Of a stretch of DNA of 64,000 nucleotides, positions 1-40,347 are shown in pieces (position 1 is the first letter of the stretch; every line of letters begins with the position of its first letter). The DNA lies in NCBI GenBank assembly GCA_039621445.1, contig CP154954.1:20756642-20820641 (forward strand), written 5' to 3'. The notes below the pieces were generated by a model that saw only the letters and a program-made list of their open reading frames with translations, was not told the DNA's origin and did no database searches. The stretch is from Euglena gracilis. Lineage: Eukaryota. Made by a program: the position numbers and the translations under genes.

Positions 1-2512
1 CACGAAAATTTGGGTCGTTAAGGGTCCATTTTAAGCATTTTGACAAAGTGGCGATTTTGAGAATTAATGGTCGTTTTAGGGGGGGTTTTGGAAAACACCC
101 CCCTGGAACGCCCTGAAATTTTGAAAAACAGAAAACAGCCGGAGAACACCTCGCCTCTGAAGCCCCGGTTGTTTGGTGAGGCTACCGGACCCCCCCTCTG
201 GAGGGGGGGTGACACGGTGTGGCAGGTGACGAAGAGGCACCCGCTTAAGCAACCCGCGCATTTTTGAACAACTCGTGAGTCCCGACGTCCAGTGATGGGA
301 GACGTGAACACACAGCACTGCCCAACAGATGCTACAATTTCTTGGAAGAGATGTTTTAAGCGGTAAACCGCGCAAAATGAGTTTTTGTGATGAAGAGATG
401 CTGGCCTAACGGAGGGGACTGGACTGGGAATAACGTTAAAAACGAGGTTACACGGTTTACCGCGTAAAGAAGTGATGATTCCTCAGGCGAAAACCCGCGC
501 ACAAGGGTTTGAGAAGGAGAACAGTTCGTGTTTGTGGATGACACGTGGGAGCGGGAAGTGGGAACGCACAGAAACCTCCAGAAGTGGGTCATCACGTGAA
601 GTTGTTAATGAACAAGTTTGGGGGAGAGGGAGGGGGACTTTGGGGCGTTATTGAACGATAGCAGTGGGCGGTTATCCGCCTACTTCGTTTTTAGTTTGCG
701 CGGGTTTCCGCCCAGATGAGGTTTGGGTGGAAACCCGAGTGGAGCTTGTTGCTGTCCTGATGGTTTGTGTTTTGTGATGTTTTGGTGTCCCAGTATTGTC
801 GGTGTCAGTGGTGACGTGTGGCGACATCGTTTTTGACAGTTGGTCGGGACAGGTTGAAAGGGAGCTGTGGCTGCTGCGCCGTGACAGCAAGCAGCCGAGC
901 AGGCGGAAACCCGCCTGGCATTTGAGCAGGAGGTGGACACCCTCCTCTGCAATTCGGACGTAGTAATGTTCCCCCCGGCTAGTGCTGAAGGGGTGGCTGC
1001 AGGGACAGCAGTGGAACGCACGTGTCAGTTGCCAGGCCGGGTGAGCTGCGGTAGAGAAGATGTTTTGTTACCGTCCCAAAAAACGGCCAAAAAACTGAGG
1101 TTGATTTCTCAGGAGGAACAAAAGCACCTCCCAGGGCCCTTCTCCTGGAACCCAACGGTCTTGGTGGCCCCAAAATCAGGGTTTGGGGAAGGCTGACGAA
1201 GAAGTGATTCAAGATATGGACGGAGAAACGCCTGTTTCAGCAGCTGATGACAGCAATCGAACAATTTTGTAGGGTTTTCAGAAGGAGTCCTCCAGGTTCT
1301 GAGAAAATCAAGGCCTTTTCAATTGTTTTTTGAAGGAGTTTCACAACATTTTTCGTTTGAAAAGCTGCAGTTTTTGCTGAAATTCAGACAGAATGCCCAA
1401 ACCACCTCTTTTTAACTGGCTCTTCTTCCCTCGGGGTCGGCAACATGCCTGCAGAGAGGCAACGGTGGTCTCCACAGTCAAAAGCCGTGTGGAAGGGGGG
1501 TAAACCAGAAGGTCGTCGTTCTCAACCAACGCCGGGTCGATGTTTGACCCGGTGCATTTTGGCCTCCATCCACGTAACCACCCTCAGCACAAGTGTGTCC
1601 GGTCCTTTTGGAAACCACCCCTGCTCTGAGTGCCCAAGTTTAAGGGCTGGCCATCTCTCCTCGTTTGGTCAACCCCTGCTGGTTCAATCTCCTCTCCCTG
1701 GTTTCCGTAAACCTCCACCCCTCAAACTCACCACAACACGCCAGACGCCATTCAGTTGCAAACTGCCTGGCAACAAAGTCTGTCGTCCGTGTCCTCCGCA
1801 AAGATTCACGCCTGTGACTGGTGTCACAAGTAGGGTTGCAAAACTTTGCCAACAAACCAGCAGACTTCATTTCTAGGGTGGCTTCCATCTCACCCCCCCC
1901 ATCCCATCGTCCACAAATGCTTTGCTTTTTCTGCTGACCCTTAACCCGGCCACACGGATTCCCGCTTACACCCAGTCGCCTTACACTCACCACGTATACA
2001 CACATACCAGGCGGATTCCCTCCTACCAATCATCAACTGTTTGTGTTATTGTACGCGGTAATCCGCGCACCATGCTTTGTTTTCACTTGTACGCGGTTAT
2101 CCGCGTACAAGTGCATTGTGCGCGGATTACCACCCAAACGTTTAACTCCGTTGTCTGTCACCTCTTGTTTCGTTTTACGCGGTTATCCGCACACACTTGT
2201 ATTGTTCACTCGTCTCTCAAATACTGTTATTAACATAAACCATGGACACACAGCCCCATGTCACACCTGTTCAAAATCGGTGTTTTTCCAGCCATTTCAA
2301 ACAGTTCTAGTACACTCCCAACTCACACAACTCACACACAATCGGAAATCGGCTAAGCGGAATACCGCGCAAAACCACTTCTGTTAAATTTTGGCCCAAA
2401 GCCGCCACACACCCCTCTCAGCTCAAATCTTTTTGCCCTTTTAGGTGTTTTTAAAACAGCCAAAAAACGCCAAAAAACGCAAAAATCGGTTGGGCAATTC
2501 GCGCCGCCTAAG
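1..2512. mobile_element. Non-autonomous ~2.8 kb TIR DNA element, copy 1 (left end lies upstream of the window)
   Basis: Colinear, diverged homologue of 32729-35399. Ends in the same right TIR TTGGGCAATTCGCGCCGCCTAAG (to 2512). Lacks a ~170 bp internal segment present in copy 2 (about 33856-34025). No recognisable transposase ORF. Confidence 0.9.

Positions 2513-2859: not shown

Positions 2860-40347
<37,488 letters not shown>

What the first reader, a model, noticed from the sequence alone, without database searches (positions are those of the whole stretch)
360..2368. GCGG-N4-CCGC palindrome scattered through the 2.8 kb element
Seen: the 12-bp palindrome with an AT-rich 4-nt centre, or 1-2 mismatch variants, occurs at 360, 452, 487, 668, 700, 727, 903, 1954, 2011, 2055, 2093, 2122, 2179 and 2357. 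It is often extended, e.g. TACGCGGTTATCCGCGTA and CAGGCGGAAACCCGCCTG, and is separated by unique sequence of irregular length. Most sites are retained in copy 2 while centre and flanking bases vary. Inference: an operator-like array for a dimeric protein (transposase or host factor), or recombination/cassette boundaries. The sites extend far deeper than usual subterminal repeats.
Basis: partly seen in the sequence, partly recalled or inferred. Interest (0 to 1): 0.7.

Follow-up and report, generated by a model that had tools for sequence, protein, structure and literature searches.

The report
Palindrome array in abundant Euglena transposon
The repeated GCGG-N4-CCGC palindromes are real and lie only inside a gene-less, very abundant jumping element, where they most likely serve as docking sites for the protein that moves it, a known design in a family not yet described.

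Summary
Observation confirmed. All 14 listed sites exist: 8 exact, 5 with one mismatch, 1 with two. Copy 1 has 8 exact sites and copy 2 has 10, against about 0.03 expected from shuffles of each copy. The other 57 kb holds no exact site with an AT-rich centre.

The host is a 2,788-bp non-coding element with 48-nt terminal inverted repeats. Copy 2 is 32612-35399; copy 1 is 1-2512 and is cut by the window start. Public DNA runs put the family at roughly a thousand copies.

The real site is wider than 12 bp: two half-sites Y-R-S-GCGG around a 4-nt A/T spacer. The element's own tips (C-TTAGGCGG) carry one consensus half-site. Most hairpins are weak, so sequence rather than structure seems to be read. 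Arms differ between the copies at half the rate expected for their CpG content; this rests on only two copies.

Best reading (0.6): a subterminal binding-site array for a dimeric, element-encoded DNA-binding protein. It works like CACTA, Ac or Muta1 subterminal repeats. No protein partner was found, and the superfamily is undetermined.

This scan earlier noted "private palindromes" in ParB-gene transposons elsewhere in this genome. I found no sequence link to them.

The parts
1..2512 (+). Copy 1 of the 2.8-kb non-autonomous inverted-repeat element. Its left 117 nt lie outside the window.
   Evidence: BLAST to copy 2 gives 87-89% identity over 1-1128 and 1133-2512. Full alignment.
32612..35399 (+). 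Copy 2, complete at 2,788 bp. It is flanked by a 5-nt direct repeat AAAGA (32607-32611 and 35400-35404), a weak candidate target duplication.
   Evidence: Contig pieces and loose ends of other copies stop at 35399.
32612..32659 (+). Left terminal inverted repeat. The tip C-TTAGGCGG carries one consensus half-site.
   Evidence: Inverted pair I1: 48 nt, 75% complementary. Tip compared with the half-site matrix; alignment.
35352..35399 (-). Right terminal inverted repeat of copy 2.
2465..2512 (-). Right terminal inverted repeat of copy 1.
   Evidence: Inverted BLAST match 2465-2513 to 32659-32611. Alignment.
360..914 (.). Left cluster of 7 palindromes in copy 1 (360, 452, 487, 668, 700, 727, 903).
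1954..2368 (.). Right cluster of 7 palindromes in copy 1 (1954, 2011, 2055, 2093, 2122, 2179, 2357).
32667..33640 (.). Left cluster of 8 palindromes in copy 2 (32667, 33087, 33180, 33215, 33396, 33428, 33455, 33629). The first lies in the part that copy 1 lacks.
   Evidence: Neighbouring sites are inverted copies of each other, centres included (I5, I21).
34854..35255 (.). Right cluster of 6 palindromes in copy 2 (34854, 34942, 34980, 35009, 35066, 35244).
   Evidence: Inverted pair I8 joins sites 34980 and 35009.
33856..34035 (+). Insert of about 180 bp private to copy 2. It is not part of the family.
   Evidence: Gap in the alignment to copy 1. Depth is at single-copy level, and contigs skip 33855 to 34036.
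21117..22375 (+). A related but different, AT-richer element. Its left end resembles the family's inverted repeat (about 28 of 35 letters). Its own sites all read GAA-GCGG-N4-CCGC-TTC (21169, 21514, 21857, 22024, 22195), and one has a long spacer (21393-21419). The right end is not defined.

Best explanation
**What it is.** The palindromes are cis-acting protein-binding sites in the two subterminal regions of a gene-less cut-and-paste (inverted-repeat) DNA transposon. The transposon is present at roughly a thousand copies. Earlier notes of this scan call the genome Euglena gracilis; I did not test that.

**The site.** Each site is two inverted half-sites, T/C-A/G-C/G-GCGG, around a 4-nt A/T spacer. 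That is the geometry expected for a protein dimer.

**How it would work (inferred).** A protein supplied in trans by an autonomous relative loads as many dimers on both sub-ends. This protein would be the transposase's own DNA-binding domain or a second TnpA-like accessory protein. Loading helps bring the two ends together and lets the gene-less copy compete for the protein. Each tip carries one half-site, so two synapsed tips would mimic one internal palindrome.

**Shown:** the array, its restriction to the elements, the half-site, the tip match, the family's abundance, and the absence of coding capacity.

**Inferred:** that a protein binds, which protein it is, and what binding does. My split is transposase itself about 0.35 and a separate accessory binder about 0.25.
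For: 1. **Enrichment.** Enrichment is extreme and confined to the elements. Copy 1 has 8 exact sites and copy 2 has 10, against about 0.03 expected. There are 0 AT-centred sites in the other 57 kb.
2. **Sequence is kept, not pairing.**
   - In 28 half-sites per copy, each of the four GCGG positions keeps its letter in 25-28 of 28.
   - Position -3 is T in 22 and C in 6.
   - Position -2 is A in 17-18 and G in 10-11.
   - The two spacer positions next to each arm are mostly A/T (22-28 of 28).
   - No site uses a different complementary arm.
3. **Weak hairpins.** DNA hairpins average -4.8 kcal/mol and range from -0.2 to -11.8. Most sites pair only 4 bp.
4. **Tip match.** Both tips read C-TTAGGCGG, which is the consensus half-site at nucleotides 2-9. 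In the window, 8 of 9 TTAGGCGG words lie in the two copies.
5. **A real, abundant transposon.**
   - It has a 48-nt inverted repeat and sharp ends.
   - Summed contig depth in run X3 is 2x10^5 to 8x10^5 inside the element. The left flank gives 206-670 and the private insert 352.
   - Run X5 gives the same picture.
   - The tool warns that this depth is not a copy number.
6. **Family majority restores arms.** The family majority letter restores the arm where copy 2 is mutated: 33457 A>G in 98.6% of depth and 34989 T>C in 96%.
7. **Arm conservation.**
   - Arms differ at 9 positions against 20.8 expected for their CpG content (Poisson P 0.003).
   - CpG columns in arms differ at 4 of 62, against 59 of 216 elsewhere (Fisher P 0.0003).
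8. **Sister element.** A sister element shares the end sequence but has its own site flavour, GAA...TTC at 4 of its 5 short-spacer sites (the fifth has one flank mismatch). G at position -3 never occurs in the 56 half-sites of the main family. In CACTA elements, conserved ends go with subfamily-specific subterminal motifs read by a second protein (PMC2613891, passages).
9. **Experimental precedent.** For Muta1, more subterminal repeats raised transposase binding and excision (PMC5499845, passages).
Against: - **No protein.** No partner protein was found. No relevant Pfam family turned up in 300 open frames of the window: 150 of 125 aa or more and 150 of 75 aa or more. The only match was a sub-threshold ZIP-transporter hit at 13305-13880. 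8 of the 158 longer frames were left out and 29 of the 179 frames listed out, most of the latter lying inside the two copies; seven of those 8 longer frames entered.
- **No further copies as sequence.** Two metagenome scans and one viral scan found nothing.
- **Uncorrected arm conservation is not significant.** Arms differ at 8.7% and the rest at 11.0% (Fisher P 0.52).
- **The CpG correction has weaknesses.** It rests on two copies and on sites chosen because they match the motif.
- **The many-copy test was not done.** The read-laying output showed only 40 of 472 variable places.
- **Target duplication is weak.** It rests on one copy and one A-rich 5-mer.
- **The sister-element argument is thin.** It rests on one decayed copy without a recognisable right end.
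- **A host protein is not excluded.**
Confidence: 0.6

Rival explanations
1. The sites are parS-like loading sites for a ParB-fold accessory protein. Earlier notes of this scan report such a protein in other transposons of this genome, and a red-algal preprint proposes one (PAG3). This would be a special case of the accessory-binder reading. It could include local base modification by a fused oxygenase.
For: - Two earlier notes (unchecked) describe transposons in the same genome that pair a ParB-fold gene with about 31-32 private palindromes.
- The Bostrychia preprint reports arrays of inverted repeats beside PAG3, which joins a ParB-like domain to a 2OG-oxygenase domain (10.1101/2025.02.11.637652, passages).
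- This element is a gene-less carrier of 14-15 dyad sites, and a sister element has its own flavour.
Against: - No ParB-like gene was found in this window.
- No shared sequence was found with the noted elements.
- The half-site equals the transposon tip, which points to an end-binding protein such as the transposase.
- The preprint's ParB assignment is itself weak (HHpred E 0.29).
Confidence: 0.15
2. The palindromes act as structures: hairpins in single-stranded DNA or RNA, or cruciforms. They would not be sequence-specific duplex binding sites.
For: - Site 24-mers fold better than background, at -4.8 against -1.07 kcal/mol.
- A few sites are long perfect palindromes (2093, 34854: about -11.7).
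- Both strands are transcribed at a low level.
Against: - Most sites pair only 4 bp, at -2 to -5 kcal/mol.
- Arms never change to another complementary pair; the sequence is fixed.
- Conserved flank positions such as CCGCGCAAAA are not complementary to their partners.
- G-T and A-C mismatches show no strand bias. At extension positions 1-6 I counted 6 against 14 in copy 1 and 10 against 10 in copy 2 (my sums).
Confidence: 0.08
3. The sites are read by a host factor. This could be a transcription factor, or a silencing or DNA-modification system that targets CpG palindromes. The element either exploits it or is marked by it.
For: - Each arm holds a CpG.
- CpGs in arms are kept far better than other CpGs of the element: 4 of 62 differ against 59 of 216. 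This could mean protection from methylation-driven decay.
Against: - No AT-centred site occurs in 57 kb of surrounding DNA.
- Site flavour is element-specific.
- The tip carries the half-site.
Confidence: 0.1
4. The palindromes are small mobile or mutational insertions of their own: mini hairpin elements, excision footprints or cassette junctions.
For: - Unique spacers are of irregular length.
- Some contigs of other copies replace the stretch between two sites. One example is 34957 to 35010, with 14 other letters between.
Against: - Sites are at the same positions in both copies and in the family majority.
- No free-standing copies lie outside the elements.
- No duplications flank the sites.
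Confidence: 0.04

Closest known systems
CACTA (En/Spm, Tgm/Tgmt*) subterminal repeat regions bound by TNPA-like proteins
   Same: - Short motifs are reiterated in both orientations and form palindromes in both subterminal regions.
- Gene-less derivatives are moved in trans.
- Ends are conserved while subterminal motifs differ between subfamilies.
- Arrays can run for hundreds of bp (Tgmt*: 24 repeats over 732 bp) (PMC2613891, passages).
   Different: - The ends here read CTTAGG..., not CACTA.
- The candidate duplication is 5 bp, not 3.
- The sites are strict dyads with a fixed 4-nt spacer.
- The half-site equals the tip.
- The array reaches about 1 kb on one side.
Muta1 (Mutator-like) and Ac/Ds subterminal transposase-binding repeats
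   Same: Many short sites near the ends raise transposase binding and excision (Muta1: PMC5499845, passages). The Ac/Ds hexamer repeats are recalled, not checked here.
   Different: Muta1's repeats are tandem and lie inside a 145-bp inverted repeat. Here the two arms share nothing beyond 48 nt plus the scattered sites, and the sites are palindromes separated by unique sequence.
PAG3 (ParB-like plus 2OG-oxygenase) with adjacent inverted-repeat arrays in red-algal Plavaka transposons, and the 'private palindrome' transposons noted earlier in this genome
   Same: Arrays of element-specific inverted repeats inside DNA transposons, proposed as self-recognition sites (10.1101/2025.02.11.637652, passages; notes e1-7359102 and e1-7335275, unchecked).
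   Different: - No ParB-like gene is here.
- The array is dispersed in two subterminal clusters rather than in tandem beside a gene.
- No sequence link to the noted elements was found.

Membership tests
Non-autonomous terminal-inverted-repeat DNA transposon (class II) | Terminal inverted repeats at sharp, repeated boundaries | tested here: met
   The ends are 48 nt and 75% complementary. The same ends occur in copy 1. Other copies' contigs stop at 35399.
Non-autonomous terminal-inverted-repeat DNA transposon (class II) | Target-site duplication | tested here: inconclusive
   AAAGA flanks the one complete copy. It is A-rich and a single case. The left flank of copy 1 is outside the window.
Non-autonomous terminal-inverted-repeat DNA transposon (class II) | Many dispersed copies | tested here: met
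   There are two copies in the window. In run X3, 20,569 contigs were laid and depth is about a thousand times the flank. Run X5 gives the same picture (the tool says depth is not a copy number).
Non-autonomous terminal-inverted-repeat DNA transposon (class II) | No coding capacity of its own | tested here: met
   - No Pfam hit was found in those of its open frames that I scanned; several shorter frames inside the copies were left out.
- The longest shared frame is 71% identical in protein at 89% DNA identity, as expected without selection.
- No protein relatives were found for the frame 1938-2384.
CACTA / En-Spm superfamily | Termini 5'-CACTA...TAGTG-3' | tested here: not met
   The ends read CTTAGGCGG...CCGCCTAAG.
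CACTA / En-Spm superfamily | 3-bp target duplication | tested here: inconclusive
   The 3 nt on the two sides differ (AGA and AAA). The only direct repeat is 5 nt. One copy only.
CACTA / En-Spm superfamily | Subterminal repeated motifs in both orientations | tested here: met
   There are 14-15 dyad sites in two subterminal clusters.
hAT5 or Transib (5-bp duplication groups) | 5-bp duplication together with the group's terminal motif and transposase | tested here: inconclusive
   A 5-nt repeat is seen once. The existence of hAT5 is taken from PMC12730594 (passages). The terminal motifs of these groups are recalled, not checked. No transposase is available.
ParB/PAG3-type accessory system | ParB-fold gene in the element or its autonomous partner | not testable with these tools
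   No such gene is in the window. No genome is held. No further copies could be fetched.
Foldback-type elements (long ends built of tandem repeats) | Long inverted arms made of tandem subterminal repeats | tested here: not met
   Without the 48-nt ends, the best local match between the left arm and the reversed right arm is a single 18-nt site. It scores 31, against a null maximum of 27.

The most novel reading that the evidence does not exclude
The palindromes are parS-like loading sites for a transposon-encoded ParB-fold protein of euglenid transposons, possibly fused to or working with a base-modifying oxygenase. With roughly a thousand copies of 14-15 sites each, the genome would hold over ten thousand such sites. 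The protein could bridge or condense the element's ends. It could also mark the T-rich centres or the CpG arms, which would explain why arm CpGs escape the decay seen at other CpGs of the element.
Probability: 0.15. Interest if true: 0.75.

Novelty: new member of a known kind. Interest (0 to 1): 0.35.

Why it matters
The finding defines a very abundant, so far undescribed DNA-transposon family of a genome whose mobile elements are barely catalogued. It gives a precise half-site (Y-R-S-GCGG, 4-nt A/T spacer) and the end sequence. Both are the handles needed to find the autonomous partner and its DNA-binding protein.

If that partner carries the ParB-fold gene noted elsewhere in this genome, this family would be the natural test bed. 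It offers thousands of sites, which suits ChIP, DAP-seq and modification calling. Otherwise it is an ordinary, well-marked example of subterminal binding-site arrays.

My literature searches listed no description of such a family in Euglena. I read only the listings.

Tried and rejected
- **Own genome.** None is held, so no genome-wide copy census was possible.
- **More copies as sequence.** Two metagenome scans used the end 23-mer and an internal 23-mer identical in both copies. One viral scan was also run. All gave 0 matches.
- **Sampling copies through predicted proteins.** I used the frame 1938-2384 that spans seven sites. It gave 14 word candidates and none significant.
- **Looking for a partner gene in the window.** 300 frames were scanned against Pfam. 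The only hit was a sub-threshold ZIP-transporter match at 13305-13880, unrelated to this finding. There were no Rfam families and no tRNAs.
- **Coding reading of the element.** Rejected: 71% protein identity at 89% DNA identity, and frames broken by indels.
- **Long degenerate inverted arms.** Rejected.
- **Right end of the sister element.** Not found.
- **Per-position diversity across the family from read laying.** Only 40 of 472 variable places were printed and the one call is used.
- **Fungal Zn-cluster CGG-N-CCG sites and the KorB operator.** Both came to mind as look-alikes. They are recalled, were not tested, and I give them no weight.
Full report
**1.

The exact pattern GCGGN4CCGC occurs 25 times in the window, against 0.87 expected from shuffles. 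Of these, 18 lie in two copies of one repeat and 2 in a third, related element. All 20 have an A/T-rich centre. The 5 matches elsewhere have G/C-rich centres.

Shuffling each element on its own, with dinucleotides kept, gives 0.026 and 0.025 expected matches, against 8 and 10 seen.

**2. The host element.**

BLAST of the first 4.5 kb against the window finds a second copy at 87-89% identity (1-1128 to 32729-33855; 1133-2512 to 34036-35399). It also finds an inverted match between 2465-2513 and 32611-32659.

- Copy 2 is therefore complete: 32612-35399, 2,788 bp, with 48-nt inverted ends that are 75% complementary.
- Copy 1 lacks its first 117 nt because the window starts inside it.
- Copy 2 holds a private insert of about 180 bp at 33856-34035.
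- AAAGA flanks copy 2 on both sides. It is one A-rich 5-mer in one copy, so it is only a weak candidate target duplication.

The element is not coding:
- No Pfam family matches those of its frames that I scanned.
- The longest frame shared by both copies is 71% identical in protein at 89% DNA identity, which is what neutral drift gives.
- Indels break the other frames.

**3. Abundance.**

I laid public data on 32300-35700 at 80% likeness or more.

| Region | Run X3 summed contig depth | Run X5 summed contig depth |
|---|---|---|
| Left flank | 206-670 | 5.7-14.5 |
| Private insert | 352 | 4.3 |
| Inside the element | 1.9x10^5 to 7.9x10^5 | 4x10^3 to 2x10^4 |

In X3, 20,569 contigs were laid. 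The tool warns that this depth is not a copy number, so I read it only as "order of a thousand copies".

Contig pieces and loose ends of other copies stop at 35399, which confirms the right boundary.

RNA reads from two runs cover the element thinly on both strands. Most are under 95% alike, so they come from other copies.

Earlier notes of this scan call the genome Euglena gracilis. I did not test that.

**4. Anatomy of the sites.**

I pooled left halves with reverse-complemented right halves, giving 28 half-sites per copy:
- Each of the four GCGG positions keeps its letter in 25-28 of 28.
- Position -3 is T in 22 and C in 6.
- Position -2 is A in 17-18 and G in 10-11.
- Position -1 is mostly C or G.
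- The two spacer positions next to each arm are mostly A/T (22-28 of 28).

The unit is therefore two 7-8-nt half-sites around a 4-nt A/T spacer.

Both element tips read C-TTAGGCGG, the consensus half-site at nucleotides 2-9, with no second half behind it. In the window, 8 of the 9 TTAGGCGG words lie in the two copies.

Neighbouring sites are often inverted copies of one another, centres included: sites 33087/33180, 33428/33455 and 34980/35009.

In copy 2 the sites start 55-1,017 bp from the left end and end 144-534 bp from the right end. The central 1.2 kb has none.

**5. Sequence or structure?**

DNA hairpin energies of 24-mers around the sites average -4.8 kcal/mol, against -1.07 for other 24-mers of the element. 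The range runs from -0.2 to -11.8, and most sites pair only the four arm bases.

The arms never switch to another complementary pair, and some conserved flanks are not complementary to their partners. This favours a protein reading duplex sequence over a hairpin or cruciform.

**6. Conservation.**

Uncorrected, arms differ at 9 of 104 positions and the rest of the element at 239 of 2172. That difference is not significant (P 0.52).

The element shows strong CpG decay, however. CpG columns differ at 59 of 216, and other columns at 180 of 1956, mostly by transitions. Half of each arm is CpG.
- Arm CpG columns differ at only 4 of 62 (Fisher P 0.0003).
- The CpG-matched expectation for the arms is 20.8 differences, against 9 seen (P 0.003).
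- Sites exact in one copy show 1 of 64 and 3 of 80 arm changes in the other, against 5.8 and 7.3 expected.

Positions -1 and +1 behave the opposite way. They differ at 9 of 26, including 4 C-to-G or G-to-C switches, against a background of 25 in 2172.

Where copy 2 has a mutated arm, the family majority has the motif letter: 33457 at 98.6% and 34989 at 96%.

The arms therefore look constrained, but the many-copy test remains undone. Only 40 of 472 variable places were printed.

**7. A sister element.**

At 21117-22375 lies an AT-richer element. Its left end matches the family's end at about 28 of 35 letters. Its five short-spacer sites, plus one with a long spacer, all read GAA-GCGG...CCGC-TTC. 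G at position -3 never occurs in the 56 half-sites of the main family.

Shared ends with private internal sites is the pattern described for CACTA subfamilies. There, a transposase reads the conserved ends and a second protein, TNPA, reads diverging subterminal motifs (PMC2613891, passages).

This is one decayed copy without a recognisable right end, so I give it modest weight.

**8. Explanation.**

The best-supported reading is a subterminal array of binding sites for a dimeric, element-encoded DNA-binding protein supplied in trans.
- The tip half-site suggests the end-binding protein itself.
- The sister element suggests a separate binder.
- I cannot decide between them.

No partner was found:
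- No genome is held.
- The window has no transposase-like or ParB-like domain in 300 frames.
- Collection scans returned nothing.
- A protein-database search with a frame across seven sites returned nothing.

**9. Comparison with known systems.**

The array works like the subterminal repeats of CACTA, Ac/Ds and Muta1.
- For Muta1, more repeats gave more transposase binding and excision (PMC5499845, passages).
- It is not a CACTA member: the ends are CTTAGG..., and the flanking 3-mers differ.
- It is not a foldback-type element: the arms share only the 48-nt ends and the scattered sites.
- The depth of the array, about 1 kb and 0.5 kb, is large but not beyond the 732-bp region described for soybean Tgmt*.

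The scan has noted element-specific palindromes before. They were seen in two ParB-gene transposons elsewhere in this genome (notes e1-7359102 and e1-7335275, unchecked). Those notes point to a red-algal preprint that proposes ParB-like PAG3 binding to adjacent inverted-repeat arrays (10.1101/2025.02.11.637652, passages). I found no sequence link between those notes and this family. That reading stays a minority possibility.

**10. Verdict.**

This is a real, strongly non-random feature of an abundant transposon family that I did not find described. Literature searches listed nothing on it; I read listings only.

Mechanistically it is a member of a known kind, with a neat dyad geometry and a tip match. 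The interest is moderate. It would rise if the ParB link or a base-modification link were shown.

Noticed in passing
window 33856-34035: The ~180-bp insert private to copy 2 begins with 63 nt (33856-33918) matched by RNA reads that end in a run of A. The upstream part of those reads (57 reads, full agreement) is not in the window. It may be a captured piece of an mRNA 3' end or a terminal exon.
   Followed up: partly
window 4373-4500 and 15799-15927; partial at 35832-35900: A ~125-bp inverted-repeat mini-element with long G and C runs at its ends occurs in two copies 96-97% alike, plus a partial relative beside copy 2.
   Followed up: no
window 20900-21030 and 22400-22500: A ~29-bp satellite (TTTTGTGGTTCACCTGTGGACACCAAAAA) lies on both sides of the sister element. 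The element seems to have landed in, or be part of, a satellite array. A solitary CCGCCTG end-like word lies at 21043.
   Followed up: no
window 36000-40000 and 10000-11200: There are long arrays of 10-nt-period repeats (GC 0.32, GC skew about -0.5) and of 8-10-nt-period repeats.
   Followed up: no
window 32612-35399: The GC skew of the element is positive over the left 1.7 kb and negative over the right 1 kb, flipping near 34300. The two arms share no alignable sequence beyond the ends and the sites.
   Followed up: partly
window 1-2512 versus 32729-35399: CpG columns differ three times as often as other columns between the two copies (27% against 9%), mostly by transitions. This is a sign of methylation-type CpG decay in this repeat.
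   Followed up: partly
window 32969-32977 (copy 1: 241-249): A solitary half-site CCGCCTAAG, identical to the element's right tip, lies inside the left arm. It is followed by another half-site-like word, AACCCGCGCA.
   Followed up: no
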